A stretch of DNA of 32,000 nucleotides from Candidatus Saccharimonadota bacterium (GCA_001790095.1 MGBH01000001.1:840001-872000), one strand, 5' to 3'. Counted from the stretch's first letter, positions 8,592 to 32,000 are shown. Numbers and translations are program-made. Notes: generated by a model not told the origin, from the letters alone.

Positions 8592-9284
8592 TTATCTATT
8601 AATAACTTTTTCTATGAGCTCCCTTAAATTTTGAAACCCCTTATCTTGAGGGAACAAACGTAGTGCATCTATAACGATTTTGTATGCTTTATCGGGTCTT
8701 AGTTGATAATAGTAGGAAAAATAAAGACCGTTATATGCTGCTTTAAGGTCATCACCCGTAGCTATGTTTTTAGCTTTTAAAAATAATTTTTCCGCATCTG
8801 GAGCAAGGGTAACGTTGGCATTCACATACAAAAAACCTAGCGACAGATATGCTTTTACAAACTGAGGATCGTTCTGTATCGCCTGCAATAAATACTGCTT
8901 TGATTTTTGCCATGAACCTGGCGTATCTAGATTATATTCAAAACGGTACATCTCTCCAAGTTGCCATTCAACCTTTGCTTTTTGCTTACCTTTTGTTTTC
9001 TCAAGAAGCGTCTTTGACAGAGCGATCGTATCCCGCAGTCGTTTAATGGATGTTTCTTTTGCCTTTTTGTCTTTAAATGTGGGAGGATAGGGGGTAAAGA
9101 TCATAAGCAGTTCATCGATCTCATGATTCACAAACGATATCTTGTCTTGCACGATTTTTTCCTGATACCGAAGATATGTTTTATAACCAAGCAATGAAAC
9201 AAGAGTAATAAAAAGAGCCAATACAGCAATCCATTTTATTTTTCTTTTATTCATTACTTTCATAAGATTACTTCCATACTTCAT
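8592..9284 (-). CDS. Membrane-anchored TPR-like repeat protein (hypothetical)
   Basis: One N-terminal TM segment (WIAVLALFITLVSLLGY) is followed by a helical-repeat region (QYLLQAIQNDPQFVKAYLSLGFLY...AAYNGLYFSYYYQLRPDKAYKIVIDALRLFP). It overlaps the helicase stop by 17 nt if M1 is used; Met codons at 9263 and 9254 are alternative starts. Confidence 0.65.
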   Translation of the reverse strand: MKYGSNLMKVMNKRKIKWIAVLALFITLVSLLGYKTYLRYQEKIVQDKISFVNHEIDELLMIFTPYPPTFKDKKAKETSIKRLRDTIALSKTLLEKTKGKQKAKVEWQLGEMYRFEYNLDTPGSWQKSKQYLLQAIQNDPQFVKAYLSLGFLYVNANVTLAPDAEKLFLKAKNIATGDDLKAAYNGLYFSYYYQLRPDKAYKIVIDALRLFPQDKGFQNLRELIEKVINR

Positions 9285-12270: not shown

Positions 12271-12905
12271 ATATTAAAAAGAAATCCTATTATGATTCCA
12301 AAAAGAGCTCCTCCCAGATGCGCCCACCACGCTACCCCTCCTTTAGATTGGGTTGCTACAAGACTCCCCCAACTATTGAAAAATTGGGTAACTACCCATA
12401 TTCCCAAGACCGCTTGCGCCGGTAACTCAATAGTCGTCAGATATCGGGCTGGGATAAGACACGTAATGGTATTGTGAGGAAAACGAACCAGATAATAACC
12501 CATTACCCCCGCAATAGCACCGGATGCACCAAGATGGAAGACGGTGGAATCCATGTTTAAAACATATTGAGCTATATTTGCTACGATTCCAGCTGCTATA
12601 TAGAATAATATATAGAGAATAGGCCCCATATCCGCCTCAACATTGTCCCCATATATATGAAGAAACCACATATTTGAAAGTATGTGCATAACTCCTCCAT
12701 GAAGAAACACCGAAGTGATAAATGGATACCATGTAACGATCTTGTCAATATTGACCTGACTTGGCACAAGGGACCAAACTTTAAAAAAACCGTCGAGATC
12801 AGGAGTTAAAAACTCAATGAAAAATATGACTGAAGTAATAAATATAAAGATGTATGTTGCAAATGTAAACTTGTTTGGAGGATCGCTGTCTTTGATAGGT
12901 AACAT
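12249..12905 (-). CDS. Rhomboid family intramembrane serine protease
   Basis: FLHGGVMHILSNMWFLHIYG (the HxxxxHxxxN region), the catalytic GxSG motif in HLGASGAIAGVMGYY, and the catalytic His in WWAHLGGALFG. The protein is polytopic. Confidence 0.9.
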   Translation of the reverse strand: MLPIKDSDPPNKFTFATYIFIFITSVIFFIEFLTPDLDGFFKVWSLVPSQVNIDKIVTWYPFITSVFLHGGVMHILSNMWFLHIYGDNVEADMGPILYILFYIAAGIVANIAQYVLNMDSTVFHLGASGAIAGVMGYYLVRFPHNTITCLIPARYLTTIELPAQAVLGIWVVTQFFNSWGSLVATQSKGGVAWWAHLGGALFGIIIGFLFNIWKRKKI

Positions 12906-16377: not shown

Positions 16378-16444
16378 ACAAAAAATGCGTGTCTTTTGAT
16401 TGTAGAATATGATATATTTTACTTTAACCATTTACTTAACACAA

Positions 16445-17035
16445 ATGAATAAGCAAAAAGCATTACTCATCATAAAACCCGACGGAGTTCAGAGGGGACT
16501 TTGTGGGACTATCCTTAAACGTTTTGAAAAAGTTGGCCTTACGATAATTGGTTTTAAATTTGCTTCAGCTGATCCCGCAACCGTAAAAGCACACTACCCA
16601 GAAAATGATGTATGGTTTGGTAAGGTGGGTCAACGAACTCTTACAAATTATGCGAAAAAAGGCTTGGATGCAAAAAAAATATTTGGGACTGATAATGCGA
16701 TACAAATCGGAAAGACAGTTAAGCAGTGGCTTATTTCTTATTTTCAGGAATCCCCTGTGTTGATAGTCGCAGTTGAGGGATACGAGACTATTGAGATCGT
16801 CCGTAAAATATCTGGAAACACTATCCCCATACTTGCGATTCCAGGCACAGTTCGCGGAGATTTTTCGCATGATACGATCGATCTTGCCAATGAACAAAAC
16901 AGACCGCTTCGTAACATTATCCATGCCTCAGATTCAGTAGAGGATGGGGAAAAGGAAGTAAATCTGTGGTTTACTAAAGAAGAGCTTTTTTCTTATAAGC
17001 GAGCTGATGAAGCTTTGATGTTTCCGCTTAACTAA
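16445..17035 (+). CDS. ndk: Nucleoside diphosphate kinase paralog, long form with the same internal insertion
   Basis: MNKQKALLIIKPDGVQRGLCGTILKRFEKVGLTIIGFKF, then GTVRGDFSHD, and the catalytic His in IIHASDSVEDGEKEVNLWF. The ATG at 16445 matches the family N-terminus; the 16409 start in the ORF track would add 12 non-homologous residues. Confidence 0.85.
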   Translation: MNKQKALLIIKPDGVQRGLCGTILKRFEKVGLTIIGFKFASADPATVKAHYPENDVWFGKVGQRTLTNYAKKGLDAKKIFGTDNAIQIGKTVKQWLISYFQESPVLIVAVEGYETIEIVRKISGNTIPILAIPGTVRGDFSHDTIDLANEQNRPLRNIIHASDSVEDGEKEVNLWFTKEELFSYKRADEALMFPLN

Positions 17036-20369: not shown

Positions 20370-21149
20370 TCAAATTCGATATATATTACGTATTATCTGA
20401 AGAATGGTTTCCTGCCAAAAAAGCATCATGATCATTCCAAGTATTATGTATGGACCAAAAGCTATCTTGCTTTTCATTTTTTTCTTTTTTGATACTAACA
20501 ATAAAACTCCAACTATCGCTCCTAAAATAAATGCAATATAAAGAGCTACGAGTCCACTCTTTAAGCCAAGCAAAAAACCGACTATAAAACTTAACTTTAC
20601 ATCACCAAATCCCATACCGCGTCCTTTGGTGAGAAGATAAAGAAAGAGTATTGGCACCATAACTAAAGCTCCTTCAACCAGTCCAAATCCAAGTCCTGTA
20701 ACAGATACCCCTTGCAGAATCTTTAAAAGAAATACTATTAAAAATAAACTTATTTGTACTTCGTCTGGAATGATTTGTTTTTTCAAATCAACCATAAAAA
20801 TCACGATAGCACAGCTTACAATCCCCAGATAAGCAAGTAAACTGTAAAAATCCTGTTCTAGGTACACACCGGCCGGGTATCGAACAATAAATACCATCAC
20901 AAATAATAACCCTGTCAGCATCTCAATAAACGGATACTGCCAAGATAGTTTTCTTTTACAGTACCTACATTTTCCATTAAGGAGTATGAATGAAATAACT
21001 GGCAACAGATCCAATACTCCTAAGTTATGTTTACAAAAGTTACAGTGAGATCTTCCGTTTAATGATTCATCCCGTGGAAGACGGTCTATCACAACTCCCA
21101 AAAATGAACCGATCGCAGTACCGAGAATAAAAATAAATAGTTCAAACAT
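20370..21149 (-). CDS. pilD: Type IV prepilin peptidase (A24 family)
   Basis: The N-terminus GSFLGVVIDRLP is followed by paired Cys motifs, CNFCKHNL...CRYCKRKLSWQYPFIEMLTG. The catalytic-Asp motif GMGFGDVKL and the C-terminal AFGPY are present. The protein is polytopic. Confidence 0.9.
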   Translation of the reverse strand: MFELFIFILGTAIGSFLGVVIDRLPRDESLNGRSHCNFCKHNLGVLDLLPVISFILLNGKCRYCKRKLSWQYPFIEMLTGLLFVMVFIVRYPAGVYLEQDFYSLLAYLGIVSCAIVIFMVDLKKQIIPDEVQISLFLIVFLLKILQGVSVTGLGFGLVEGALVMVPILFLYLLTKGRGMGFGDVKLSFIVGFLLGLKSGLVALYIAFILGAIVGVLLLVSKKKKMKSKIAFGPYIILGMIMMLFWQETILQIIRNIYRI

Positions 21150-21160
21150 GTCTTATTATT

Positions 21161-21263
21161 ATCTCAAATATAAAATGTCAAATTGCAAATATACATATCA
21201 AATATCAAATCTATTAAAACATTTGAGATTTAACATGTAGATTTGACATTTGAAATTTGAGAT
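21161..21263. repeat. AT-rich dyad-symmetric array: 23-nt inverted arms (21/23 match) built from five NTCAAAT units on the left and four ATTTGAN units on the right
   Basis: The left arm ATCTCAAATATAAAATGTCAAAT (21161-21183) matches the reverse complement of 21241-21263, ATCTCAAATTTCAAATGTCAAAT. CAAAT occurs at 21165, 21179, 21186, 21199 and 21206. ATTTG occurs at 21221, 21241, 21248 and 21255. Each arm contains a TTGACA box pointing outward. Confidence 0.55.
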
Positions 21264-21267
21264 TCTA

Positions 21268-23373
21268 TTATTCATATCTTAACGCATTCAGGGCAGATAT
21301 TTTCTTTGCACGCTGTGCTGGATAGAATCCGGTAATCATACCGACAATGAAAGATGATAAAAGAATGAAAAATACAAGAAATGGCGGGACATATGTCAGA
21401 CTTAAATAACCTTGACCGTTCACAATGGCAATAAGTGAAATGCCAAAAGAAAGGGATCTTCCTATAAACTCACCAAGCATAAGACCTCCGACTCCTCCAC
21501 CTAAGCCCATGATCATAGCCTCAGCAAGAAACAAATCCTGTATCTCATCAGATACAACACCCATTGTCTTCATACCTCCAATCTCTCGCGTTCTCTCAAG
21601 GAGGGACACTGTCAATGTGTTAAACATGCCAAGTGAAGCTACTCCAAGGGCTACCATCCCTAAAAGTCCAAGTAGTAAACGTAAATTGGCAAAAAGTGTC
21701 TCTATTTGGCTCACCGTATCTGCCGTGCTGTTTGTTTTAAAACCCATGGTTTCAATCGCTTTTCTAGACTTGGACATTTTGTCTTTATCCGTGAAAACCA
21801 CTTTGACCTGGGAAAAATTCTTTATTCCAATGGTCTGAGCATCGGTAAACGGAACATACATATACTGAGCATCAACATCATCTACAACTCCCCTTATCGT
21901 ATACTCCACCTGACTCGTCAATACCCTCCCCTCAATCTCCGGCATAAGGTTTTTAACAACGATAAATGAAACTTTAAATGTTTTTCCAACTGCCTGTTTT
22001 TCTGGAATATTTAATAGACGAAGGAATCCAAGCGATACCACCGTCTCACCACTTAATGGAGTATCCAATTTAAGCACGTCTGATTTTTTCTTGACAAGTG
22101 AGGCTTCATCACTTGACTGCAGTTGGACTACTTCAAGACCACCAGCACTTGTTGCAATCACAACCGCATCATAAGTCAAAGCAGATGCGGTAGCCTCGGC
22201 AGGAGAGATCTCAAGAGCCGCTGACTCAGTTGACTCACCCAACACTTCAGCAAACTCTAAACGAGACAATATCTGCAGATCTTTTGACTGCAGACAAACA
22301 GTCTCCCATTTATGCCGGCCTAGTTCATCAAGTATAGGAGTAAATCCTCCGTCAGCGTTTTTTTCAAAAAGTGGGACATGTGCTCTCACCCATAGTCCTA
22401 AATACATATTTCGGATACTGTCAAACCCCTCCCTGCCCTTATTTTCAAATGGAGCATATTCGCCACCCCACACTTCCTCTCCTTCAAATCCACCCTCAAG
22501 CCTGCTTGTATAACCTAGTATCTTTGAGCTACTTGAACACGATTCCCACACAAGAGATGCGATAGTCGGCTTGATATTAAATTCAACAGACCGTATCTTT
22601 CCTCCCAACTCTCCGTTTTGCATTTTGGTCTCAACACCTGCGACCTGACCGTCTGGGGGCGGTGTATAAAGCTGATTAAAGGCAAAATATTTTCCCTTAA
22701 GAAGTCTAACTTTGTTTATCTCTAGATACTGCTTCGGGACTGCGTATACTAAGGTATCTGTATTTGCTTTGTTGTAGCTGACTCTTCCAACCAATGAAAT
22801 AAATGGGACCACCTGTTCTATTTGTGGAAGTTTTTTTAGTTTTTTTACCGCATCGGAGTTCAAACGAAGCGATGTATTCTCTCCTGTTGAGACGTCAATA
22901 ATCTTAAGCTCATCCAAACCTGCAACTTTACTAATGATCAACTTTTCTAGTCCATACCCCAAAGAAAGAAGTAATACAATAATTCCAACACCAACTGACA
23001 TGCCCAGTATAGTGATAAATGAACGCGTCTTTTTTACCATGAGGTTTTTATATGCAAGGGAGATGAGATAAGATCGTTTGAGTTGGGTAGTACGCGTCTT
23101 CTCAATACCGTTCACCATGACTTCATATATTTGATAGAATCTAATTCTCCACAACCCATGTAATTTTCTGAAAGGAATGCCAAGTAAGGGTATTCTCATA
23201 AACATACCATAGATCTTGCCGAATAAGAAAGTGACAAGGAGCATGAAGAAGCTTGCTACCATATAAGTTGCACGTATCGTGTGTGGAATCCCTACTTTTA
23301 TCTTTAATAAGATCTGAACCCAGTACTTCGGGCTTATGATATTTTTAAAGAAATTTAATATATGGGCTTTCAT
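21268..23373 (-). CDS. MacB/FtsX-type ABC transporter permease with an extra N-terminal TM helix and an extracytoplasmic domain of about 430 aa
   Basis: The MacB-like N-terminus is LAYKNLMVKKTRSFITILGMSVGVG. The C-terminal FtsX module is LLGMVALGVASLGMFNTLTVSLLERTREIGGMKTMG...FYPAQRAKKISALNALRYE. A long soluble segment lies between the first and second TM helices of that module. Confidence 0.9.
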   Translation of the reverse strand: MKAHILNFFKNIISPKYWVQILLKIKVGIPHTIRATYMVASFFMLLVTFLFGKIYGMFMRIPLLGIPFRKLHGLWRIRFYQIYEVMVNGIEKTRTTQLKRSYLISLAYKNLMVKKTRSFITILGMSVGVGIIVLLLSLGYGLEKLIISKVAGLDELKIIDVSTGENTSLRLNSDAVKKLKKLPQIEQVVPFISLVGRVSYNKANTDTLVYAVPKQYLEINKVRLLKGKYFAFNQLYTPPPDGQVAGVETKMQNGELGGKIRSVEFNIKPTIASLVWESCSSSSKILGYTSRLEGGFEGEEVWGGEYAPFENKGREGFDSIRNMYLGLWVRAHVPLFEKNADGGFTPILDELGRHKWETVCLQSKDLQILSRLEFAEVLGESTESAALEISPAEATASALTYDAVVIATSAGGLEVVQLQSSDEASLVKKKSDVLKLDTPLSGETVVSLGFLRLLNIPEKQAVGKTFKVSFIVVKNLMPEIEGRVLTSQVEYTIRGVVDDVDAQYMYVPFTDAQTIGIKNFSQVKVVFTDKDKMSKSRKAIETMGFKTNSTADTVSQIETLFANLRLLLGLLGMVALGVASLGMFNTLTVSLLERTREIGGMKTMGVVSDEIQDLFLAEAMIMGLGGGVGGLMLGEFIGRSLSFGISLIAIVNGQGYLSLTYVPPFLVFFILLSSFIVGMITGFYPAQRAKKISALNALRYE

Positions 23374-23376
23374 ATC

Positions 23377-24177
23377 TTACAAATTCAATTTTTTCAAAAA
23401 CTGCGGATCTCTTACGTTTGATTCCACCATATCTTCGCCAATCTCTTTTTTTCCTGCAAAACTATCTTTTAATAAATGCTTGTCTTTTGTGGTATACGTC
23501 TCAACTACTTCTCCATCTAGGATGTGAAATATCTTGGTTGCATATTTAAGATATTCAAGGTCGTGGGTAACCATGATGATGGTCTTACCCTCATCTACCA
23601 GTTTCATAAATCGCTCAAGAAGTTCACGTCCGGATACGGTATCCAGATTTCCTGTCGGCTCATCGGCAATGATAAGGATCGGGTCTATCATAAGTGACCG
23701 TACCAAGCTAATTTTTTGCTGTTGACCGGATGATAGCTCAAGTGGCATATATCCTGCCCATTTGGAAAGTCCTATTGAGTCAAGAAGCTTCATCGCCCTC
23801 TCTCTCGCAACCTCTTCTTTCTCATCCAGCAAATATAGCGGAAACATGACGTTTTCAATGACATTAAATGAACTTATCCAAAGGGGTTCCTGATAAATCA
23901 TACCAACCTTGTCACGTCTAAAAAGTCCCCGCTGGTCCTCAGACATCTTATAAAAATCTTTATCTTCAATCATCACATTACCTTCGCTTGGAGCCTCAAG
24001 CCCAGACAATGTATGTAGGAGAGTTGATTTACCACACCCTGATGGACCAAATATGATGACAAATTCTCCCTTGTTTATGGTGATATTTATTCCCTTTAGC
24101 ACCTCAACCACTCCGGTTCCAACCGGAAACGACTTTTTTACATTGTTAATTTGTATGAGTACTTTTGAGTCTGCCAT
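23377..24177 (-). CDS. ABC transporter ATP-binding protein (MacB/LolD/FtsE class) with a C-terminal tail of about 45 aa
   Basis: Walker A is GPSGCGKSTL, the signature is LSSGQQQK, and Walker B is IIADEPTGNLD, followed by H-loop VTHD. It starts 1 nt after the giant gene's stop and ends 3 nt before the permease ATG. Confidence 0.95.
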   Translation of the reverse strand: MADSKVLIQINNVKKSFPVGTGVVEVLKGINITINKGEFVIIFGPSGCGKSTLLHTLSGLEAPSEGNVMIEDKDFYKMSEDQRGLFRRDKVGMIYQEPLWISSFNVIENVMFPLYLLDEKEEVARERAMKLLDSIGLSKWAGYMPLELSSGQQQKISLVRSLMIDPILIIADEPTGNLDTVSGRELLERFMKLVDEGKTIIMVTHDLEYLKYATKIFHILDGEVVETYTTKDKHLLKDSFAGKKEIGEDMVESNVRDPQFLKKLNL

Positions 24178-24178
24178 A

Positions 24179-27100
24179 TTACCTAATATTTTTTAGAAAT
24201 CCAAATGTTTTGGACAGGTTTTCGATAACTAAGTTAAGCGCGTCTTTTGTTGACTTTGGTGTGATGGTCACGGTGTCATCAGACTGAGCGATGTTTGCAG
24301 CCTTGTCTTTGGAAACTGCCCGAAGATGATAGATCTTTGATGGTGAAAGACCAGGGATGGTGATGACATGGTTGGTCGTCAGATTAGTGTCCTCCTGTGT
24401 GGTCTGACTATAGGTAACACCAGTCCCTTGAGCATATTCAACCTGTGTGGTAGATGGTTCATCGGTATCCCAGCTCACGATAATCTGCGCTTTTGCATCA
24501 TCTCCAATCCCAACGATCGTGCTTTCAACGATCATGTTTTGTATTTCAGGCGGTCTGAAATCCACCGCAGTCTTTACTTTATTGGACGGATTTATGACTT
24601 CGTTCCCTGCTGTGTCTCTACCCTTTACAATGATCGTATAATCGGTATCGTCTTTTAAATTCTTCAAAATAACCTCATGACTTTTCTTTAGTATCAGGCT
24701 TATCTGATCTTTGGCTGCTTCTAGATTGTTGGATGGATAATAGGTAACGATCGATGAGATAGGTGTGTTGGAAGTCCAAATCAATCTAAGTGTGGCCGTT
24801 GGCATACCGCTTACCTGTTGTATACGAAGACCTACTATCTTTGGCACTGGAAGAGTCTCAAATATATAATCATCTCCCGCAAACGTATTACCCTCATCAT
24901 CTTCAACAACAATACGATAATGATAGATCGTTCCCTCTGTAAGACTGTCAAGCTTAAGAGTAGTTGTCGTCTCATTTTTGCTTACTGAAGTCGAACTCAT
25001 GCTTCCATAGGAAAGTGTTTTCCCATATTGTAGCGTTGCCTTTATACCGTTTTTGCTGGTAAAGGTAACATATGCCGAATGAATACTGATATCTGACGCT
25101 TTCACGCCCGATACAAAAGGCGCGGGGTTAGTAGTAAGGGTTATTTCTTCAGATGAGCCATAGTTACCATCTTCATCAGCCCAAGAAACTTGAAAATAAT
25201 AAGCAGTACCAGGCGCAAGTTCTGTCAGTTTAATCTCATGGTTAGTCACTTGATCAGATGATCCAACTTCATTGCCGTAATCGCCTGATTTTGTCCCGTA
25301 TTTGACAAACGAATTACTTGCCCGTGATGTTGACCATATGATAGTTGCACTTTTTGTTTTTACAGTAGCTGATGGAGAAGCGGTGAGATCAGGAGCTTCC
25401 AACCATCTGCCTGTTGGCATAAGAGACACCGTGGTTGAAGCGCTTGAACATTGATCGGTCGTTGTACAAGCCTTTATACAAAGATAATATGTAGTTGATT
25501 CTAGATCAACTCCACCGATTGAAGTCACCACATATGAGTTTCCTGCGGTTGAGCCTGCGATCTCATAACTTGACATATCTGTTGAACATTCGGCATTCGT
25601 AGTTGAAGCATAAACTCTGTATTCTTCAAATGAAGTACCAAGGTCAGTGGGCGGATCCCAAGTCAGTCCTACACGGTATTTTTTTGTCGCACGGATTGAG
25701 TTGTCAAACGCCTCAGGAGCAAGCGGGATACCAGGAGCCTCAACAGATACTGAAAATGTTTTTGAGGCGTAATTAGCATAAGCTACATTATTAGCTTCAT
25801 CAACCGCCACTACGTAAAACGTATTTTCGCCCTCATGAGTACCTGCTATATCATTTACCATGCTAGCTGAGGTCGTTGATATATTAGATGCATTGGGAAG
25901 CTCATTTACCGAGTATCTGTATTCTTTGATAGTACCTCTATATACGGACGGTTCATCCCAGTCAAAATCGAATTGATTTGCCGCAGGATCGCTTGAACCT
26001 AATACAAGATTTCTTGGAGGAGAAGGAGCAACGCTGTTAAAATTAAAATTAACGCTCGTAACAGATGTATAATTACCTGCCACATCGTTTGCCTTGAGAT
26101 AGAACGTATTTGTCCCCTCCTGATAAGCAGTAATACCTGTCAAAGTGCACATACTTTCTGTACATGTTCCGGTAAATGCTTGATATTGAGATAGACTACC
26201 CGATGCAGTTCCGGTTTTATAATAATAATTAAGTAGTCCTGAAGCAGTACTATTTGTAATAGGATCGCTCGTTGGAATCCAGTTAAAGGCGAAGTTGTTG
26301 GTAGAAGTGTAACCGCTTGGCAGTACTGATACGTTTTCTGATGCTACGTCTGTTGGAGAAACAGAATCAAAAAAGTAATGAAACGGAGACCAATGGGTTG
26401 TGTTTATATTTCCTGCATTATCAACCGCCTTTATTTTGAGATAATAGTCTCCATCTTCCGTACCATCTGTTGCAAGGGTTGCACTATAACTTGCAGTTGT
26501 GATAAGTTCACCAGATACTGATGCATCAGCGTTAATATCATTCCCAAAATATACATAGTACCCGTTTACTCCTGACCCTATACCATCATCCGCTCCACTC
26601 CATTCAAAATAGGGATGAGCATAGTTATACCATGTATTGTCTGTTATCGATGCTGATTTTGTTGCGGTCGTATAAGAATCAAGAGTATCTGGATTAGTTG
26701 GAGCTGTTTCATCAGCATAGTAAGTCAAACTTAGATCTGATATGGTCGGAGTTGTCGCGCTTTCTTCTGAGTTGAGTGTGGCTTTTACTTGTACATAACG
26801 ACTTGCCGGAGAATTAATATTGTAAGTGAAGTTTGTTCCTTCAATTTGTTTCAAGTTTGTTGCCTGCGCCCATGCAGACCAGTTTGCCGCATCAGTTGAG
26901 GTTCGAGTCTCAAACATAATGCTGGTTGCAGAAGGCGAGGCGACTGTCGCGGACAATCCGGCAAATCCATAGGTGTTTCCGATACTTAAGGGTTTTGTGG
27001 TATAGGTCCCTTGATATTTATAGGATGATGATGTGGTTGGAATATTATACTTCCAGAATGTCTGAGTATAATTTCCTTGTAATGCGTAAAGAGTATTGCT

Positions 27101-30100
27101 TGGCCCTTTGACCAAAGCACCTCCCGCATATGTTTGAGATGGAGTCATAGTGCCGGTCATCCATGTATCACTCGCAACATCATAGATATGAAAACCGTTG
27201 TTGTTGAATCCGGACATAACATAGATCTTTCCATTGTCATATACGCTTCCTGAGCCGTTGGAGACTAATTCAGGAACAGAGGTAAGCGTAGTCCATGTTG
27301 GTGGGTCCGATATCGTATATTTATAAAAAGTGTTTGTATTATTACCCCTTACAATATACAGATTTCCACTTCCATCATATGTGATAGAGGCACCCCACGA
27401 ACTGCCAAATACATCAGGAGGAGACGCTCCCGGATTTGATTCGGTAGTCCACTCATTTGTTGAGATTGTATACTTATAGAGCGTACGTGAACCAAGTCCA
27501 CGTAGAACATAGATTGTATCACTTCCGTCATATGCGGCTATCTGATTACCGGCCGCGCCTATGGTATCGGGCGCATTTGCCATCTTTGTCCATTCGGAAG
27601 TCGCAGGACTATACCGGTACATGGTTTTTGTGGTACCGCCGCATACGGCATATAGGTTATTGTTCGCATAGACCAATCCGCCATTATAGATACATGGAAG
27701 ATAGGGTAAAATCGACCATTTTTTCGTTGAAACCTGGTATCTATTCATATAGGCAGTACCTCCTTGAGCGTAGTAGATCGTGTCTGATCCATCATATGCT
27801 AAAGAAGTGCCTGTATACGGTTGATGGATGATTGTCTCGCCGTCACTTTGGTATGTGCGATCAAGAGGCAGAATCGGCGTCTCCGGAACAAACCTATTTT
27901 CTTTGAAATCAAACTTGTATATGGCAGTTGTTCCTGCACCCGATGTGCTGTATCCCTGGAAAAGATATGCATAGCGTGATCCGTCATACGCTACAGCTCC
28001 TGAGGATAACCAAACATCTGTTGCAACAGGTACTGATTCCCATTTGTTGGTAAGCATCCCGTACCGCCATACAAACCGTTTGTTGTCTGTATTGGCTTGA
28101 TAGTCATAAGTCGTAAATACGTACAGGTAGTTATCATAAAAGACTACATTATGTGAAGCAGATCCTATGGTATATGGAGCAAGAGGCAGGGTATTGTCCC
28201 ATGTGTCAGTCGCAACTATATATTTGAGAAGTCCTGACCCTCCACCAGTTACTGCCCATATATACGTTGATCCATCGTAATAGAGTCCTGCGCCGGATGT
28301 CACAGCGTAAGGAGGTGCAGACATGTTTCCCCAATCATCAGCCGAGATTGTATATTTCAAGAAACTTGTTGATCCTCCTGAGAATGCATATATCGTATCG
28401 CTTCCAACCCTCACAAGAGATGCTCCATACGACCATGCAACAGTCGGCTGAGTAAGGCTCGAATTCCAGGTGTTTGTTGAGATCGTATATTTGAAAAATC
28501 CATATTGTCCGCCTCCCTGAGATACATAGATGCTGTCATTTCCGTCAAACAACATACTTGATCCATAGTAAATATTACCCGGCGCATCAGTAAGCTGAGT
28601 CCATGAGGTAGAAACTGGATCATATGTATAAAATGTCTTTGTGTTATAACCGCGCAGTACATATATATTACTATTGGCGTATGTTGCTGCTCCATATACC
28701 ATGCGTGCTCCCCAAGGTAGCGTACCTATCTGATATCCTGCCCATGAGCCCCGAGTCATCGCCTCAAGAGTAATAGAGGTATCAGGAGATACGGCAGGTT
28801 TGTCTGTCTCACTTCCTGCGCTAGCTGTTACAATACCTGTCCAAAAAGGATCAGCAGCATCGACGCCTGCTCCACTTCCAAGCTGACCATTGATATTATT
28901 GCCTGAGGAATCACTTACATTCTGCGAAACAGCATCGTCAAAATGATAAAGTCCTACAGTATTTGCATCGGTTGTAAATGGTGTGGTATGGGGCGTGAAA
29001 TCCGCAGTATATCGAGCGATGTTTGAGATCCGCATCTCATCAAGCCCTCCATACATATAACCGGTATATCCACCTGAACCGTTATAACCGATATACTGAG
29101 TGACATTGGTAACGAGTGTACCTGTTAGACCGGTACGGGTAAAATCAAGTCTGCCGTTTACAAACCCCTGCTCAGTACCTGTTGCGGAATCATACGTGAG
29201 AGCAAAATGATACCATTTACCTGACTCCAACATAGTAGTACCCGTATTTGAATATACGCTTGATGAGGCGGTCGTTCGCAACTGATATGCCAGGTAGTTT
29301 TGTCCCGAATACACTCCAACAGCAGTCTGCCATGAAGAATTGCTTCCATAAAAAAGCCTATAACCATTTGAGTTGTAATATTTAAACCATCCCTCTATTG
29401 TTACTGCTGAAGAACCATTAAGCGTTGTGTGCATGGTAGGAAGTCTCACATAATCTGCTCCATCAAAAGTAAGCCCTGTTCCCCATTTTGATGCGCCGTT
29501 TGAGGAAATCATGTCAAGTTTCGGACTGCCCGTTTCGTTTGGATTGCCATAGTATACGTAGTAATTTGTATCGTCCACTCCGGATACAATGCTTTTTTGC
29601 AGTGGAAAATATGTGGTTGAAGCATCTATATACTGATGGTCTATCTCCCTCCAGGATGATCCATCAAGATATATTACTCGCCAATCTTTTCTGTCTTCAC
29701 GAAGTTTACTAGCAGTAACTAATGCGTCCGTATCAATATCCACTTTCACCAGGCTTCCGGCAGATGAGGCAGTGAATGAAGAAATGGTAAGCTGTTTGCG
29801 GTACGCATAGCTCATATTCCACCACGATGTATCGGACGTATAAGTTGCGCTGCGGGTGGATTCTGCATCATCCCAGTCTGCTTGATTTGTCAATGTTGTT
29901 GTTGTAGCAGGTGATATGCCACTATATATATAGCTAAAACCTGCAACCGCATCGGATTTATTACCCAGCTTGTCTTTTGCTTTGATACGAAGATAATATG
30001 TCTCGCCGTTTGTCATACCGGTTGCGACCGTATAATGAGCATCACTCTGATATGTTCCCAGTGTCTCAGGGTCAGCTGCAGCGTTGCTTCCAAAATACAC

Positions 30101-32000
30101 ATAATATCCGTCAAGTCCTGTCTCTGTATCAGTCACTCCGGACCAAGAAAAATATGGATTTCGATAATTGTAACTTTGTCCAGAAGTTAAGGATGTGCCA
30201 CTATTGGAAGAATAACCCGAAACGCTTAAACTTCCCGTATCAGGAGCAGTTGTATCTGAGTCATAGTTTATCGTAAAGTCAGATAAGGTCGGACTGTCGG
30301 TCCCATCCCCAGTTAATACAGCTTTTATCTGAATAAAGCGTGAAGGACTTGAGGTAACCACTCCTCCTGAGATCTCTTCCCAATTACTCCATGTAGTCTG
30401 ATTACTTGACGTACGTGAATAATATACTATATTTGTACCTGCCGGCTTTGTCTCTGTATAAGCGAATTCACCAAACGCGGTCGCATAAGTTAAATCATAG
30501 ACCGGCGAGCTCCATGCACCTGTTGTTTGATACACGTTACCGGCAGGTGGAGTATATTTCCAGAATCCTCCATCATATCCTTGATAAGCATAGACCTTAC
30601 CTTCATAATAAGTCAAACTTCCACCCCACCGTATCATGGCTGGCAGATCCGCCACACGCTCCCAGATGCTTTTGCTTATTGAATAGCGGTAAAACCTCCT
30701 CCCCCAAATATCATTTTCTCCACCCACCTGTGCATAGATATAATCGCCTCCATCATAAGTCATACCTCCTCCGTAATAGGATCCAACAGGTAGTGACGGA
30801 AGCTCTTCCCAACCGTTGGTAGTCTCATGATATCTCCAAAATCTGCCTCTTTGATATCCTTGCATTACGTACGTATACATACCAGCCTGTGCCATGCCTG
30901 AGCCGCGATAAGTACCTTCCGGTACTAAAGCTTTTTCAATCCATGTATTTCCAACCGCATCATAACGATAAAACTGAGCTCCCCCTCCTCCACGAAGCGC
31001 CCAAATAGTATTGCTACTTGATGAAGCTATCATGTTTGAGCCGTCACCTAATGTAAGCGTAGGACTTGTCAAACCACTCGTTGTCCAATTATTTGCAGCA
31101 GGAGGATTATATCTATAAATAGCATTACCATTACTTCCCCTATTAAGATATAATGCATTATTTACGTACGCAAGAGATGTACCATAATAGCCAAGAGTTA
31201 CTCCTGCTGCAGGAAGTGTAGTCCACGTATTTGTTGCGATCGTGTATTTATAACAAGTCTGAGTATTTTGGCCACGACACATATAGATATTTCCTTCTCC
31301 ATCTGACTCTATACTCTTGCCCGTTGCCCATGCATTTGCAGGAGGCCCTGCCACTGCATTGCTGTAGGAGTTGTTTGAGGGATAATAATAAACAAACTCG
31401 CTTAGACCTATCTGCATAATGATTCTGCTGTTTTCCGAGTCATATGCCAGCGCACCATAGGATGTAGAATATGGTAAGTCCGCTTTTGACTCCCATTGAT
31501 TATTTGTTGCATTATATCTATATAGTGTTTTTGTTCCCGCCCCCCTCATAGTATAAATATCTTGACCTATCATAACTGCATTTACTGCGGTCGACAAAGA
31601 TCCATCAAGCGGAAGGTTTGCCCGCTGCAGCCATGAGGGAGAAGGAGTAGTCACATCAAGGCGGTATAATCTGTCCGGACTACCCCAGTCAGTGAGAAAA
31701 TAGAGGTATTGGCTTCCATCGTATACCAAATCACAATATGTTTGACAATATACGCTTGCTGGAGTAATCGCATCCCAACCTTTTGTGCTTATAGTATAAC
31801 GCCATAGATCATAATAACCATTGCCGCGCCATGCATATATGGTGTCATTACCCACATATTCGAGCCTTGCTCTTGCACCCATATAAGCCGGAGTATTGGT
31901 AAGATAGCTCCATGTATCAGTCGGTATGTCGTACTTCAAAAAGTAACGGGAAAGATTGGTAGTTGATGTACGGGTAGCAAATACCCATATAGTATCTGTT
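24179..32000 (-). CDS. Giant secreted or surface protein (more than 2,606 aa, 5' end beyond the window): Kelch-like beta-propellers, beta-sandwich modules, DUF2341, LamG/concanavalin-like lectin domain and a C-terminal fibronectin-III array
   Basis: The frame stays open from 31939 to 32000 (...TDTIWVFATRTSTTNLSRYFLKYDIPTDTW), so the TTG at 31939 is not the true start. Blade motifs such as Y-x-Y-x(4-5)-N/T-x-W-x(5-7)-P recur in about 30545-32000 and about 27050-28760. DUF2341-like WWNMSYAYRKQLTI...YYVYYGNPN maps to about 29530-29824. LamG-like LTFDGADYVRLP...WYHFALTYD...LDEMRISN maps to about 28990-29500. Fn3 and purple-acid-phosphatase-N-like repeats (ATIIWSTSRASNSFVKYG...PGTAYYFQV) map to about 24179-26700. 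Confidence 0.9.
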   Translation of the reverse strand, partial: TDTIWVFATRTSTTNLSRYFLKYDIPTDTWSYLTNTPAYMGARARLEYVGNDTIYAWRGNGYYDLWRYTISTKGWDAITPASVYCQTYCDLVYDGSQYLYFLTDWGSPDRLYRLDVTTPSPSWLQRANLPLDGSLSTAVNAVMIGQDIYTMRGAGTKTLYRYNATNNQWESKADLPYSTSYGALAYDSENSRIIMQIGLSEFVYYYPSNNSYSNAVAGPPANAWATGKSIESDGEGNIYMCRGQNTQTCYKYTIATNTWTTLPAAGVTLGYYGTSLAYVNNALYLNRGSNGNAIYRYNPPAANNWTTSGLTSPTLTLGDGSNMIASSSSNTIWALRGGGGAQFYRYDAVGNTWIEKALVPEGTYRGSGMAQAGMYTYVMQGYQRGRFWRYHETTNGWEELPSLPVGSYYGGGMTYDGGDYIYAQVGGENDIWGRRFYRYSISKSIWERVADLPAMIRWGGSLTYYEGKVYAYQGYDGGFWKYTPPAGNVYQTTGAWSSPVYDLTYATAFGEFAYTETKPAGTNIVYYSRTSSNQTTWSNWEEISGGVVTSSPSRFIQIKAVLTGDGTDSPTLSDFTINYDSDTTAPDTGSLSVSGYSSNSGTSLTSGQSYNYRNPYFSWSGVTDTETGLDGYYVYFGSNAAADPETLGTYQSDAHYTVATGMTNGETYYLRIKAKDKLGNKSDAVAGFSYIYSGISPATTTTLTNQADWDDAESTRSATYTSDTSWWNMSYAYRKQLTISSFTASSAGSLVKVDIDTDALVTASKLREDRKDWRVIYLDGSSWREIDHQYIDASTTYFPLQKSIVSGVDDTNYYVYYGNPNETGSPKLDMISSNGASKWGTGLTFDGADYVRLPTMHTTLNGSSAVTIEGWFKYYNSNGYRLFYGSNSSWQTAVGVYSGQNYLAYQLRTTASSSVYSNTGTTMLESGKWYHFALTYDSATGTEQGFVNGRLDFTRTGLTGTLVTNVTQYIGYNGSGGYTGYMYGGLDEMRISNIARYTADFTPHTTPFTTDANTVGLYHFDDAVSQNVSDSSGNNINGQLGSGAGVDAADPFWTGIVTASAGSETDKPAVSPDTSITLEAMTRGSWAGYQIGTLPWGARMVYGAATYANSNIYVLRGYNTKTFYTYDPVSTSWTQLTDAPGNIYYGSSMLFDGNDSIYVSQGGGQYGFFKYTISTNTWNSSLTQPTVAWSYGASLVRVGSDTIYAFSGGSTSFLKYTISADDWGNMSAPPYAVTSGAGLYYDGSTYIWAVTGGGSGLLKYIVATDTWDNTLPLAPYTIGSASHNVVFYDNYLYVFTTYDYQANTDNKRFVWRYGMLTNKWESVPVATDVWLSSGAVAYDGSRYAYLFQGYSTSGAGTTAIYKFDFKENRFVPETPILPLDRTYQSDGETIIHQPYTGTSLAYDGSDTIYYAQGGTAYMNRYQVSTKKWSILPYLPCIYNGGLVYANNNLYAVCGGTTKTMYRYSPATSEWTKMANAPDTIGAAGNQIAAYDGSDTIYVLRGLGSRTLYKYTISTNEWTTESNPGASPPDVFGSSWGASITYDGSGNLYIVRGNNTNTFYKYTISDPPTWTTLTSVPELVSNGSGSVYDNGKIYVMSGFNNNGFHIYDVASDTWMTGTMTPSQTYAGGALVKGPSNTLYALQGNYTQTFWKYNIPTTSSSYKYQGTYTTKPLSIGNTYGFAGLSATVASPSATSIMFETRTSTDAANWSAWAQATNLKQIEGTNFTYNINSPASRYVQVKATLNSEESATTPTISDLSLTYYADETAPTNPDTLDSYTTATKSASITDNTWYNYAHPYFEWSGADDGIGSGVNGYYVYFGNDINADASVSGELITTASYSATLATDGTEDGDYYLKIKAVDNAGNINTTHWSPFHYFFDSVSPTDVASENVSVLPSGYTSTNNFAFNWIPTSDPITNSTASGLLNYYYKTGTASGSLSQYQAFTGTCTESMCTLTGITAYQEGTNTFYLKANDVAGNYTSVTSVNFNFNSVAPSPPRNLVLGSSDPAANQFDFDWDEPSVYRGTIKEYRYSVNELPNASNISTTSASMVNDIAGTHEGENTFYVVAVDEANNVAYANYASKTFSVSVEAPGIPLAPEAFDNSIRATKKYRVGLTWDPPTDLGTSFEEYRVYASTTNAECSTDMSSYEIAGSTAGNSYVVTSIGGVDLESTTYYLCIKACTTTDQCSSASTTVSLMPTGRWLEAPDLTASPSATVKTKSATIIWSTSRASNSFVKYGTKSGDYGNEVGSSDQVTNHEIKLTELAPGTAYYFQVSWADEDGNYGSSEEITLTTNPAPFVSGVKASDISIHSAYVTFTSKNGIKATLQYGKTLSYGSMSSTSVSKNETTTTLKLDSLTEGTIYHYRIVVEDDEGNTFAGDDYIFETLPVPKIVGLRIQQVSGMPTATLRLIWTSNTPISSIVTYYPSNNLEAAKDQISLILKKSHEVILKNLKDDTDYTIIVKGRDTAGNEVINPSNKVKTAVDFRPPEIQNMIVESTIVGIGDDAKAQIIVSWDTDEPSTTQVEYAQGTGVTYSQTTQEDTNLTTNHVITIPGLSPSKIYHLRAVSKDKAANIAQSDDTVTITPKSTKDALNLVIENLSKTFGFLKNIR

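What the first reader, a model, noticed from the sequence alone, without database searches (positions are those of the whole stretch)
21268..32000. Giant propeller/LamG/Fn3 surface protein translationally coupled to a MacB-type ABC pair with an oversized ectodomain
Seen in sequence:
- The giant ORF of more than 2,600 aa runs off the window.
- Its TAA stop (24179-24181) is 1 nt from the ABC ATPase ATG (24177).
- The ATPase stop (23377) is 3 nt from the FtsX-type permease ATG (23373).
- The three genes therefore form one translationally coupled unit, with a prepilin peptidase next in line after a 118-nt repeat-filled spacer.
- The permease has an additional N-terminal TM helix.
- About 430 aa lie between TM1 and TM2 of its FtsX module, which by my recollection is roughly twice the periplasmic domain of characterised MacB.

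Established knowledge: MacB, LolCDE and FtsEX-type (type VII) ABC systems do not move substrates across the membrane. They use ATP to drive extracytoplasmic domain movements that push, extract or activate partners outside the cell.

Inference: this pair could be a dedicated machine that releases, mounts or remodels the giant adhesin-like protein. I do not know of a characterised example of such a pairing. The propeller-rich protein next to pilD also recalls PilY1-type pilus-associated propeller adhesins.
Basis: partly seen in the sequence, partly recalled or inferred. Interest (0 to 1): 0.7.

Follow-up and report, generated by a model that had tools for sequence, protein, structure and literature searches.

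The report
Giant surface protein with dedicated ABC motor
In a large group of ultra-small uncultured bacteria, a giant secreted surface protein is always encoded directly in front of its own MacB/FtsX-type ABC ATPase and permease, which suggests an ATP-driven membrane machine that holds or moves the protein and that I could not find described anywhere.

Summary
A giant ORF (2,606 codons, open at the window edge), an ABC ATPase and a 701-aa MacB/FtsX-type permease sit 1 and 3 nt apart. A 118-nt hairpin spacer and a prepilin peptidase gene follow.

Among 78 species-level genomes of Microgenomates (CPR/Patescibacteria), 69 had enough upstream DNA to judge. All 69 carry the same trio, with median gene gaps of 2 and 0 nt. 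No other neighbour is found in more than 28 of 77 loci.

The conserved part of the giant protein is not the Kelch/LamG head, which is swapped between lineages. It is a C-terminal stalk of about 800 aa made of Fn3-like domains. The stalk ends in a near-invariant tail, TPKxTxxALNLVIxNLxxxFGFL, 2–10 residues from the C-terminus. Orthologues start with ordinary Sec signal peptides and have no membrane or wall anchor.

The permease has a MacB fold. Its ectodomain is twice the usual size and carries a family-specific β-domain with no match in the PDB or Pfam.

Best reading: a type VII ABC mechanotransducer whose dedicated outside partner is the giant protein. The link to PilY1 and pili is not supported. 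I call it a new variant of a known kind. All evidence is genomic.

The parts
24179..32000 (-). Giant secreted protein gene. It is 5'-truncated by the window edge: 2,606 codons plus TAA are visible. Full length is about 2,770-2,810 aa, judged from orthologues.
   Evidence: Open frame to the window edge. Orthologues in L001 and L002 are 2,771 and 2,809 aa. Pfam finds Kelch, fn3 and Pur_ac_phosph_N. No TM-like segment in the visible part (maximum KD19 1.06).
30500..31999 (-). N-terminal Kelch-type β-propeller region of the variable head (approximate limits).
   Evidence: Kelch_6, Kelch_2 and Kelch_4 hits in residues 1-700. This part aligns only to close relatives or to repeats.
29012..29464 (-). 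LamG / concanavalin-A-like domain (residues about 846-996). It is part of the variable head.
   Evidence: Laminin_G_3, E 1.4e-15. Coordinates. Query residues about 828-1057 are not aligned even in the 51%-identical relative L010.
26930..28792 (-). Central Kelch β-propeller region of the variable head (approximate limits).
   Evidence: Kelch_6, Kelch_1, Kelch_2 and Kelch_FKB95 hits at residues 1101-1615.
24257..26512 (-). Conserved C-terminal stalk: about 750 aa of tandem Fn3 / Pur_ac_phosph_N / Ig-like domains (residues about 1830-2581).
   Evidence: This is the only part that aligns colinearly to the end in all orthologues. Column identity is 0.5-0.8 across 65 orthologues. Pfam finds fn3 in 4 stretches, Pur_ac_phosph_N in 3 and Big_13.
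24182..24256 (-). Conserved amphipathic C-terminal tail, TPKSTKDALNLVIENLSKTFGFLKNIR. This is the proposed handle for the ABC ectodomain.
   Evidence: V, L, F and F are invariant in 65/65, and T, P, T, A, L, L and G are present in 94% or more. The motif occurs in 74 loci, always 2-10 residues from the ORF end, and in no other of 5,905 ORFs. Hydrophobic moment 1.5-1.6.
23377..24177 (-). ABC ATPase (266 aa) of the LolD/FtsE/MacB clade. It starts 1 nt after the giant gene's stop codon.
   Evidence: ABC_tran, E 7.7e-29. Best NCBIfam models are LolD, FtsE and MacB-NBD, all below their cut-offs. Walker A GPSGCGKST, signature LSSGQQQ, Walker B ILIIADE and the H-loop are intact (read).
21268..23373 (-). 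MacB/FtsX-type (type VII ABC) permease, 701 aa. It starts 3 nt after the ATPase stop codon.
   Evidence: MacB_PCD and FtsX. AF2 model pLDDT 83.5. Foldseek top hits are MacB 5gko (E 3.7e-18), LolCDE, Spr0694-5 and YtrEF. The family profile's best PDB hit is YtrF, E 2.5e-25.
23035..23373 (-). Family-specific N-terminal extension (residues 1-113) with a hydrophobic helix at about residues 35-59.
   Evidence: Conserved in 120 homologues; F42, F43 and L46 are nearly invariant. Predicted helices at 2-13, 15-60, 65-78, 80-92 and 100-113. Flank charges are +6 and +9.
21727..22923 (-). Extracytoplasmic domain (residues 151-549): a MacB Porter/Sabre core interrupted by a large insertion.
   Evidence: MacB_PCD matches in two stretches. 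Model secondary structure. Comparison of domain lengths.
22258..22626 (-). Family-specific β-rich insert domain (residues about 250-372) with a nearly invariant Cys pair (C279, C360).
   Evidence: The stand-alone AF2 model has pLDDT 88.5 and pTM 0.80. No PDB match (best E 0.28, TM 0.25 or less). No Pfam hit even at E 10. Only weak SH3b-like viral hits. Found only inside this permease family among 1.84 billion representatives. Conserved residues.
22084..22254 (-). Disordered Ser/Ala/Glu/Thr-rich linker (residues 374-430) after the insert domain. Its length varies between homologues.
   Evidence: pLDDT below 50 for residues 374-430. Alignment columns rich in indels. Sequence.
21150..21267 (.). 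118-nt spacer forming a long hairpin built from ATTTGAN heptads. It marks the 3' boundary of the trio.
   Evidence: Inverted repeat with 49-nt arms, 78% complementary. RNA fold -38 kcal/mol, z = -5.2. Heptad enrichment: 8 found against 0.9 expected.
20370..21149 (-). Prepilin peptidase (PilD, A24). It is a neighbour and not part of the conserved module.
   Evidence: A24_N_bact and Peptidase_A24. Downstream in 20/39 close loci and 1/32 distant loci.

Best explanation
The three genes encode one dedicated envelope machine that is conserved across Microgenomates (OP11-group Patescibacteria).

Shown:
- The ATPase and permease form a type VII (MacB/FtsX-fold) ABC pair.
- The permease has a double-size ectodomain with a family-specific β-domain.
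- The giant protein has a lineage-variable head. In this window the head is Kelch propellers plus LamG.
- It also has a conserved stalk of about 800 aa of Fn3-like domains, ending in a near-invariant amphipathic tail at the extreme C-terminus.
- The three genes always occur together, with junctions tight enough for translational coupling.

Inferred:
- The giant protein is exported by Sec and its signal peptide is cleaved. It then has no anchor of its own.
- The ABC ectodomain grips the conserved tail and the membrane-proximal stalk, and so holds the protein on the cell.
- As in FtsEX-EnvC or LolCDE-LolA, ATP binding and hydrolysis in the cytoplasm are passed on as ectodomain movements. These movements switch, extend, tension or eventually release the stalk and its binding head.
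- The head probably binds host or partner cell surfaces, or polymers.
For: - Synteny: 69 of 69 loci with at least 700 nt upstream carry a giant homologue directly before the ATPase and permease. No other gene family is present in more than 28 of 77 loci.
- Junctions: median gap 2 nt from giant to ATPase (58/71 at 10 nt or less) and 0 nt from ATPase to permease (65/73 at 10 nt or less). No terminator-like site lies on the coding strand inside the trio.
- Co-divergence: giant C-terminus, ATPase and permease, clustered independently, give the identical 46/18 split. The giant-permease distance matrices correlate at r = 0.90.
- Duplication as a unit: two whole trios lie on one contig (L059, L077). 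All three parts of L077 are closest to L049; the L059 parts are closest to L055 or L067.
- Shared transporter: two tail-bearing giants precede a single ABC pair in L046 and L068.
- Tail motif: near-invariant, always 2-10 residues from the C-terminus, and found nowhere else in 5,905 ORFs.
- Export without an anchor: orthologue N-termini are Sec signal peptides with AxA-type cleavage sites. There is no lipobox Cys, no LPXTG and no C-terminal TM.
- Transporter class: MacB fold, ATPase of the LolD/FtsE/MacB clade with intact catalytic motifs.
- Ectodomain: a conserved insert domain with a Cys pair, restricted to this family.
- Established knowledge: type VII ABC systems act on extracytoplasmic partners by mechanotransmission (reviews PMC5985334, PMC7668044).
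Against: - No direct evidence of physical contact. I could not run a complex prediction, and 65 sequence pairs are too few for co-evolution statistics.
- The correlation of the distance matrices could largely reflect shared species phylogeny.
- Only the best 80 of at least 563 related loci were examined.
- The signal-peptide and no-anchor calls were made by eye and by hydropathy, not with a dedicated predictor. The N-terminus of the window's own protein is missing.
- The tail could serve another receptor, such as the wall or an S-layer.
- The insert's weak resemblance to SH3b wall-binding domains would fit an ectodomain that binds peptidoglycan rather than the giant protein.
- No transcript or protein data are available.
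Confidence: 0.45

Rival explanations
1. Transient assembly or release factor, in the style of LolCDE. After Sec export the amphipathic FGFL tail lies in the outer leaflet of the membrane. The ABC pair uses ATP to extract it and expel it outward. This hands the giant protein to the wall or S-layer, or releases it. The transporter is not a permanent base.
For: It rests on the same synteny and tail evidence as the main model. The tail is amphipathic with a hydrophobic FGFL end. LolCDE, LolF and YbbAP, which extract hydrophobic anchors or compounds from the outer leaflet, are among the closest structures (PMC8333309, PMC12646458).
Against: The tail's mean hydrophobicity is low (about 0.4 KD). There is no lipobox or acylation site. 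No downstream acceptor analogous to LolA is conserved in the neighbourhood. It is unclear why about 800 aa of stalk would also be conserved if only a tail is extracted.
Confidence: 0.25
2. Co-expressed but not physically coupled. The ABC pair handles a small ligand, such as an antimicrobial peptide, a lipid or a cell-wall precursor, as MacB, BceAB and YtrEF-type systems do. The giant protein only supplies, captures or protects against that ligand.
For: The closest solved relative by sequence is B. subtilis YtrF (E 2.5e-25). From my own knowledge, its operon responds to cell-wall stress. The insert gives weak hits to SH3b wall-binding domains. Public annotations call these proteins lipoprotein-release or antimicrobial-peptide permeases.
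Against: Strict 69/69 adjacency across deep divergence, duplication as a unit, matching clustering of all three proteins, and a dedicated invariant tail are hard to explain by co-regulation alone. The SH3b hits are not significant (E 0.014 or higher). The annotations are automatic.
Confidence: 0.17
3. An FtsEX-like regulator of cell-wall remodelling. The giant protein would be, or would recruit, a peptidoglycan hydrolase that the ABC pair activates during growth or division.
For: Both are type VII ABC systems with an outside partner. FtsX structures appear among the Foldseek hits (E 1e-4 to 1e-6).
Against: No hydrolase, LytM, CHAP, NlpC/P60 or coiled-coil domain is detected in the giant protein. 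The FtsX NCBIfam models score 21-24 bits against cut-offs of 225-255. The ectodomain is of the MacB_PCD type, not the small FtsX ECD.
Confidence: 0.05
4. A PilY1-like pilus-associated adhesin, functionally tied to the adjacent prepilin peptidase and to type IV pili.
For: pilD lies directly downstream in the window and in 20 of 39 close relatives. The head is rich in propellers.
Against: Orthologues have type I signal peptides and no prepilin leader. No PilY1/PilC or vWA domain is found. pilD is absent downstream in 31 of 32 distant modules. A long hairpin, or in relatives a rhodanese-like gene, separates pilD from the trio. No pilin or PilB/C/M genes lie nearby.
Confidence: 0.03

Closest known systems
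MacB of the MacAB-TolC pump (E. coli, A. actinomycetemcomitans, A. baumannii; PDB 5GKO, 5LIL, 5NIK)
   Same: Four-helix FtsX-type membrane domain. A Porter/Sabre periplasmic core domain sits between TM1 and TM2. The NBD belongs to the LolD/FtsE/MacB clade. Best Foldseek hit, E 3.7e-18.
   Different: No MacA-type adaptor and no outer-membrane duct in the neighbourhood. The NBD is a separate gene here, though it is fused in L064, L076 and L080. The ectodomain is about 408 aa against about 200. It carries a family-specific β-domain and a disordered linker. There is an N-terminal extension of about 113 aa. The partner is a giant secreted protein rather than a small substrate.
FtsEX with EnvC, PcsB, CwlO or RipC
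   Same: A type VII ABC system with no transported substrate. ATP-driven ectodomain movements act on a dedicated extracytoplasmic partner, which docks through helices (PMC7668044, PMC10694151). This is the closest analogy for how the module may work.
   Different: FtsX has a small ECD, not a MacB_PCD. The FtsX NCBIfam models are far below their cut-offs. The partner here has no hydrolase or coiled-coil module. It is 10-20 times larger and is always encoded directly upstream.
LolCDE-LolA / LolF and YbbAP-TesA
   Same: MacB-fold systems that grip a hydrophobic handle at the outer leaflet and hand it to, or work with, an outside partner. They are among the top structural hits (PMC8333309, PMC12646458).
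   Different: The partner has no lipobox or acyl anchor. The lolCE model scores 72.6 bits against a cut-off of 362. The organisms are monoderm, with no outer membrane to sort to.
YtrEF (B. subtilis; PDB 9O9X) and Spr0694-0695 / YknYZ of Gram-positive bacteria
   Same: MacB-fold ABC systems of monoderm bacteria. YtrF is the closest solved relative by sequence profile (E 2.5e-25) and has the best target-normalised TM score of the hits listed (TMt 0.67).
   Different: The similarity covers only the C-terminal half of the profile. Those systems have no comparable insert, no N-terminal extension and no giant partner gene.
Giant adhesins exported and retained by type I secretion ABC systems (LapA, SiiE class)
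   Same: A very large repetitive surface protein is genetically coupled to a dedicated ABC transporter, and a C-terminal element is recognised by that transporter.
   Different: This comparison rests on my own knowledge and was not tested. Those ABC proteins are HlyB-type exporters in diderm bacteria, and their substrates lack Sec signal peptides. Here the ABC has the MacB fold and the substrate has a Sec signal peptide.

Membership tests
Type VII ABC (MacB/FtsX-fold) superfamily | C-terminal FtsX-type membrane domain (TM2-TM4), with TM1 separated from it by an extracytoplasmic domain | tested here: met
   PF02687 FtsX at residues 571-693, E 5.4e-13. Model helices at 115-150, 550-603, 608-651 and 664-700.
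Type VII ABC (MacB/FtsX-fold) superfamily | Overall fold similarity to solved MacB, LolC/E and FtsX structures | tested here: met
   Foldseek gives 61 PDB chains with E of 0.001 or less; every one of the top 50 is a MacB-fold (type VII) ABC protein: MacB, LolC/E, Spr0694-5, YtrEF, HrtB, YbbP, YknZ, BceB or FtsX. Top hit 5gko, E 3.7e-18. Profile against PDB sequences: YtrF 2.5e-25, MacB 4.2e-21.
Type VII ABC (MacB/FtsX-fold) superfamily | Cognate NBD of the LolD/FtsE/MacB clade with intact catalytic motifs | tested here: met
   Best NCBIfam models are LolD (2.3e-56), FtsE (9.1e-52) and MacB NBD (3.2e-51). Walker A, signature, Walker B-Glu and H-loop are present.
Type VII ABC (MacB/FtsX-fold) superfamily | Permease dimer with two NBDs; mechanotransmission rather than transport across the membrane | not testable with these tools
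   This needs biochemistry or a complex structure.
MacAB-TolC-type tripartite efflux pump | An adjacent membrane-fusion (HlyD/MacA) adaptor and an outer-membrane factor | tested here: not met
   No such gene is present in the window, in the Pfam-annotated contexts of L001 and L002, or among the conserved neighbour families.
MacAB-TolC-type tripartite efflux pump | MacB equivalog score | tested here: not met
   NF007826 scores 72.4 bits (permease) and 174 bits (ATPase) against a cut-off of 966.
FtsEX | FtsX/FtsE equivalog scores and the small FtsX extracellular domain | tested here: not met
   FtsX models score 21-24 bits against cut-offs of 225-255. FtsE scores 175.8 against 264.85. The ectodomain matches MacB_PCD instead.
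LolCDE | LolC/E equivalog score and a lipoprotein (lipobox) substrate | tested here: not met
   TIGR02212 scores 72.6 against 362.45. Partner N-termini have AxA sites and no lipobox Cys.
PilY1/PilC-type pilus adhesin | PilY1/PilC C-terminal propeller domain, vWA domain, and association with a minor-pilin/T4P operon | tested here: not met
   No such Pfam hit at E 0.01 or less. No pilin or PilB/C/M genes nearby. pilD adjacency is specific to one clade.
Class III (prepilin) leader substrate of PilD | A short basic leader, G at -1, E at +5, then a hydrophobic helix | tested here: not met
   Orthologue N-termini are 25-60-residue Sec-type signal peptides ending VQA|AS, AFA|AS, VEA|AS and similar. 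The window's own N-terminus is missing.
Sortase-anchored (LPXTG) or C-terminally TM-anchored surface protein | A C-terminal LPXTG-like motif, a hydrophobic segment and a basic tail | tested here: not met
   The C-terminus is ...TPKSTKDALNLVIENLSKTFGFLKNIR with no hydrophobic span.
Type I secretion giant adhesin (LapA/RTX class) | A HlyB-type ABC exporter (ABC_membrane fold), RTX repeats and no Sec signal | tested here: not met
   The permease has the MacB fold. No RTX/HemolysinCabind hit. A Sec signal is present in orthologues.

The most novel reading that the evidence does not exclude
The trio is a previously unrecognised class of ATP-powered surface organelle of Microgenomates. A MacB-fold ABC motor forms the membrane base of a giant stalk-and-head protein, gripped by its C-terminal tail. 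ATP hydrolysis would then actively extend, retract, tension or detach an exchangeable binding head. That would make it a pilus-independent, motorised attachment or capture device for the episymbiotic lifestyle, and the first type VII ABC system whose partner is a megadalton-scale adhesin.
Probability: 0.2. Interest if true: 0.85.

Novelty: new variant of a known kind. Interest (0 to 1): 0.66.

Why it matters
Type VII ABC systems are known to drive efflux (MacAB), lipoprotein extraction (LolCDE), activation of cell-wall hydrolases (FtsEX) and lipid hydrolysis (YbbAP-TesA). A system whose dedicated partner is a giant modular surface protein would add a new output to this mechanism.

It would also give a concrete, testable handle on how ultra-small, uncultured Microgenomates build and operate their cell surface. 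These bacteria are assumed to depend on attachment to other cells, yet almost nothing mechanistic is known about them beyond type IV pili in other CPR lineages.

The invariant C-terminal tail and the family-specific ectodomain insert are small, well-defined elements. They can be tested directly by co-folding, by peptide binding, by ATPase stimulation, or by searching tomograms of enrichments.

Practically, the tail motif and the permease insert can serve as markers. They could be used to annotate several hundred 'hypothetical' or 'Fn3 domain-containing' giants, and permeases labelled 'lipoprotein-release', in public CPR genomes.

Tried and rejected
- Literature. Eight full-text searches and four papers read found no description of a giant-protein/MacB-type module in CPR. 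This is absence within an open-access library, not proof of novelty.
- Homologue search with the giant's last 329 aa. It returned only contig-end fragments named 'hypothetical' or 'fibronectin type III domain-containing'. It gave no functional names and no clear hits outside CPR.
- Fold search of the insert domain. PDB gave nothing. The viral library gave only non-significant SH3b/endolysin wall-binding-like hits. Pfam gave nothing at E 10. I did not adopt the SH3b reading.
- A fourth conserved gene. All-against-all clustering of flanking ORFs found none. The recurrent ORF of about 800 aa downstream is leucyl-tRNA synthetase, and the ORF of about 200 aa is a rhodanese-like membrane protein.
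- Complex prediction of tail plus ectodomain. I considered a linker-fused chimera with a paired alignment. I did not attempt it, because the structure tool only accepts window or database sequences and both jobs were needed for the permease and its insert.
- Residue-level co-evolution between tail and ectodomain. Rejected because 65 pairs give too little power.
- The spacer hairpin as a canonical intrinsic terminator. There is no G+C-rich stem with a T-run on the coding strand, so its role is left open.
Full report
**1. Observation**

On the minus strand, the frame that starts at 31999 is open for 2,606 codons and ends at TAA 24179-24181. One base later the ATG at 24177 opens a 266-aa ABC ATPase. 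Its stop at 23377-23379 is followed after 3 nt by the ATG at 23373 of a 701-aa permease. The permease stops at 21268-21270. A 118-nt spacer (21150-21267) separates it from a 259-aa prepilin peptidase at 20370-21149.

Pfam confirms the following:
- Kelch repeats, fn3 and Pur_ac_phosph_N in the giant protein.
- Laminin_G_3 when that segment is scanned alone (E 1.4e-15).
- ABC_tran in the ATPase.
- MacB_PCD (residues 118-260, profile positions 1-141 of 207) and FtsX (residues 571-693) in the permease.

DUF2341 was not detected.

The stretch between TM1 and TM2 is about 408 aa by hydropathy. The periplasmic-domain constructs of MacB, LolE and YknZ in the PDB are 187-214 aa. 'About twice' therefore holds.

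**2. Organism**

The permease has 341 or more database relatives of about 700 aa. The named ones are Roizmanbacteria, Woesebacteria, Levybacteria, WS5 and 'Patescibacteria group'. The other genes in the window fit a small CPR genome:
- sortase, rhomboid, an S26 signal peptidase fusion, a DHH phosphoesterase and an ABC-2 transporter;
- two NDK genes, thymidylate kinase and PEP carboxykinase (called by eye from the translations).

The window comes from a Microgenomates (OP11-group) bacterium.

**3. Synteny**

A scan of one genome per GTDB species found at least 563 loci encoding relatives of the permease. The best 80 were fetched with 10-kb flanks. I translated all ORFs and searched them with the four window proteins.
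- Among 78 independent loci, 74 have the ATPase adjacent or fused. Three of the other four are cut by a contig end. The fourth (L070) has the ATPase about 750 nt upstream.
- 69 loci have at least 700 nt upstream of the ATPase. All 69 carry a homologue of the giant protein directly upstream.
- The median gap is 2 nt from giant to ATPase (58/71 at 10 nt or less) and 0 nt from ATPase to permease (65/73 at 10 nt or less).
- Independent gene calls with Pfam for two close relatives show the same order.
- Clustering all flanking ORFs found no other family in more than 28 of 77 loci. The commonest are a rhodanese-like membrane protein, an M16 peptidase, pilD, MreB and LeuRS.
- pilD lies downstream on the same strand in 20 of 39 close loci and in only 1 of 32 distant loci.

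The conserved unit is therefore the trio. pilD is inherited local gene order.

**4. Evolution as a unit**

Average-linkage clustering of the giant C-terminus, the ATPase and the permease, done separately, gives the identical 46/18 partition. The giant-permease distance matrices correlate at r = 0.90. Part of this may simply reflect species phylogeny.

Other observations point more specifically to a unit:
- One contig (JBAYIT010000002.1) carries two complete, divergently oriented trios about 10 kb apart (L059, L077). All three parts of L077 are closest to L049. The L059 parts are closest to L055 or L067.
- One MAG holds a near-clade module and a far-clade module with different tails (L027, L068).
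- In L046 and L068, two tail-bearing giants precede a single ABC pair.

**5. What is conserved in the giant protein**

Only the C-terminal part, about 770-1,100 aa, aligns colinearly to the very end in all orthologues. Giant ORF sizes mostly range from about 1,150 to 2,940 aa, with a median of 2,382.

The heads differ between lineages. Kelch propellers dominate in the near clade. The LamG segment is not aligned even in the 51%-identical relative L010. Far-clade heads have no Kelch and include an FGE-sulfatase-like domain.

The stalk consists of tandem Fn3 / Pur_ac_phosph_N / Ig-like domains. Its column identity is 0.5-0.8 across 65 orthologues.

The stalk ends in the motif T-P-K-[AS]-T-x-x-A-L-N-L-V-[IV]-x-N-L-x-x-x-F-G-F-L:
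- V, L, F and F are invariant in 65/65.
- The motif is always 2-10 residues from the C-terminus.
- It is present in 74 loci and in no other of 5,905 ORFs.
- It is amphipathic (hydrophobic moment 1.5-1.6) and is not a TM segment.

Full-length orthologues start with Sec-type signal peptides that have AxA-like cleavage sites, such as VQA|AS, AFA|AS, VEA|AS and VFA|LN. They have no prepilin leader and no lipobox Cys. There is no LPXTG motif and no C-terminal TM segment. The mature protein is therefore extracytoplasmic, with no anchor of its own that I could detect.

**6. The ABC pair**

The ATPase is closest to the LolD, FtsE and MacB-NBD models, below every curated cut-off. Its Walker A, signature, Walker B-Glu and H-loop are intact.

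The permease model has a mean pLDDT of 83.5. It shows:
- an N-terminal helical extension (residues 2-113);
- TM1 (residues 115-150);
- an ectodomain (residues 151-549);
- three C-terminal TM helices.

Foldseek against the PDB returns MacB-fold (type VII) ABC proteins in all of the top 50 places: MacB (5gko, E 3.7e-18), LolCDE, Spr0694-5, YtrEF, HrtB, YbbP, YknZ, BceB and FtsX. A family profile against PDB sequences is closest to B. subtilis YtrF (2.5e-25) and then MacB.

The doubled size of the ectodomain comes from an insertion within the MacB core. The insertion is a β-rich domain (about residues 250-372) flanked by disordered segments at 238-248 and 374-430.

Modelled alone, this domain is confident (pLDDT 88.5, pTM 0.80).
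- It has no PDB match (best E 0.28, TM 0.25 or less).
- It has no Pfam match even at E 10.
- It gives only non-significant SH3b/endolysin-like hits in the viral library.
- It contains nearly invariant residues, including a Cys pair at C279 and C360.

An exhaustive phmmer search of 1.84 billion representative proteins found the domain in only 47 clusters. In full-length proteins of about 650-870 aa it lies at about position 205-450. In a few longer proteins (about 650-1,000 aa) it lies at about 507-646, which in the longest fits fused ATPase-permease forms. The rest are shorter, apparently partial proteins.

The N-terminal extension is conserved across the family. Its hydrophobic helix (about residues 35-59) has basic flanks of +6 and +9, so 'one extra TM helix' is plausible but the topology is unresolved.

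**7. The spacer**

The 118-nt spacer is an inverted repeat with 49-nt arms, built from ATTTGAN heptads. As RNA it folds at -38 kcal/mol, with z = -5.2.
- No canonical terminator or promoter lies on the coding strand inside the trio.
- The junctions of 1 and 3 nt leave no room for either.
- The hairpin marks the 3' end of the unit. Its function is open.

**8. Mechanism**

Shown:
- a type VII ABC pair with a specialised ectodomain;
- a Sec-type giant protein with a variable head, a conserved stalk and an invariant tail;
- obligate adjacency of the genes, and inheritance and duplication as a unit.

Established: MacB-fold ABC systems do not move substrates across the membrane. They transmit ATP-driven movements to periplasmic domains and their partners (PMC5985334, PMC7668044, PMC8333309, PMC12646458).

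Inferred (confidence about 0.45): the ectodomain grips the tail and the proximal stalk. It retains the otherwise unanchored giant protein at the membrane, and it uses ATP to switch, extend, tension or release the protein. The exchangeable head provides the binding specificity.

Rivals:
- transient extraction or release of the tail, in the style of LolCDE (0.25);
- co-expression without contact, with the ABC pair acting on a small ligand or the cell wall (0.17);
- FtsEX-like control of a hydrolase (0.05);
- a PilY1/pilus adhesin (0.03).

**9. Comparison and novelty**

The pair is a member of the type VII ABC superfamily; every feature I could test was met. It is not a member of the MacAB-TolC, FtsEX or LolCDE families: the equivalog scores are far below cut-off, there is no adaptor or outer-membrane factor, the ectodomain is not the small FtsX ECD, and the partner has no lipobox.

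In the way it works it is closest to FtsEX-EnvC (a partner docked on the ectodomain) or to LolCDE (a hydrophobic handle). Its partner, a multi-domain giant with a dedicated C-terminal tail, and the ectodomain insert have no described counterpart that I could find.

I rate it a new variant of a known kind. Interest is about 0.66. The genomic pattern is unusually clean and directly testable, but there is no evidence yet of physical contact or of function.

Noticed in passing
window 21150-21267; L036 7826-7866; L003 21200-21290: The permease-pilD spacer is a near-perfect long hairpin made of ATTTGAN heptads (8 heptad-pair matches against 0.9 expected). The same heptad occurs as an in-frame tandem array inside the pilD coding region of L036 and in an intergenic stretch of L003. 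This suggests a lineage-specific simple-repeat element that can sit in both coding and non-coding DNA.
   Followed up: partly
window 13798-16431 (-): An 877-aa protein combines a multi-helix hydrophobic N-terminal half, a Peptidase_S26 (signal peptidase I) domain and a weak CAP/SCP domain. This is an unusually large fusion for a signal peptidase.
   Followed up: no
window 9268-12270 (-) and 12249-12905 (-): A 1,000-aa ResIII/DEAD helicase-like protein has a hydrophobic C-terminal region. Its start overlaps the end of the upstream rhomboid protease gene by 22 nt. DUF1266 and signal-peptidase genes lie further upstream on the same strand.
   Followed up: no
L064, L076, L080: In three relatives the ATPase and permease are fused into one ORF of about 960-1,000 aa, with an NBD-TMD order like E. 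coli MacB. The giant gene is still directly upstream where the sequence allows this to be seen.
   Followed up: partly
L046 3-8937; L068 791-9021; L059/L077 (contig JBAYIT010000002.1): Some genomes have two tail-bearing giants in tandem before a single ABC pair. One contig carries two complete, divergently oriented trios about 10 kb apart.
   Followed up: partly
loci L003-L082 (record titles): Many GTDB representative records titled 'uncultured Gammaproteobacteria', 'Weeksellaceae', 'Pseudomonadales', 'Limisphaerales' or 'Aerophobetes' carry this module, which is otherwise specific to Patescibacteria. Their titles look like placeholders or binning errors.
   Followed up: no
L006 12043-12681, L007 12103-12705, L019 12075-12737; L001 166-834: A membrane-anchored rhodanese-like protein of about 200 aa lies between the permease and pilD in 28 of 77 loci, and upstream of the giant gene in the two closest relatives. 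It is absent from the permease-pilD gap in the window.
   Followed up: partly
window 7998-8579 (+) and 16409-17035 (+): Two nucleoside-diphosphate-kinase paralogues lie within 9 kb. Both are longer than typical NDKs. The close relative L002 has two NDK genes side by side.
   Followed up: no
window 22258-22626 (-) (permease residues 250-372): The ectodomain insert gives recurrent but non-significant Foldseek hits to phage SH3b/endolysin wall-binding domains (E 0.014 or higher, probability up to 0.98). This is a hint that it might bind peptidoglycan.
   Followed up: partly
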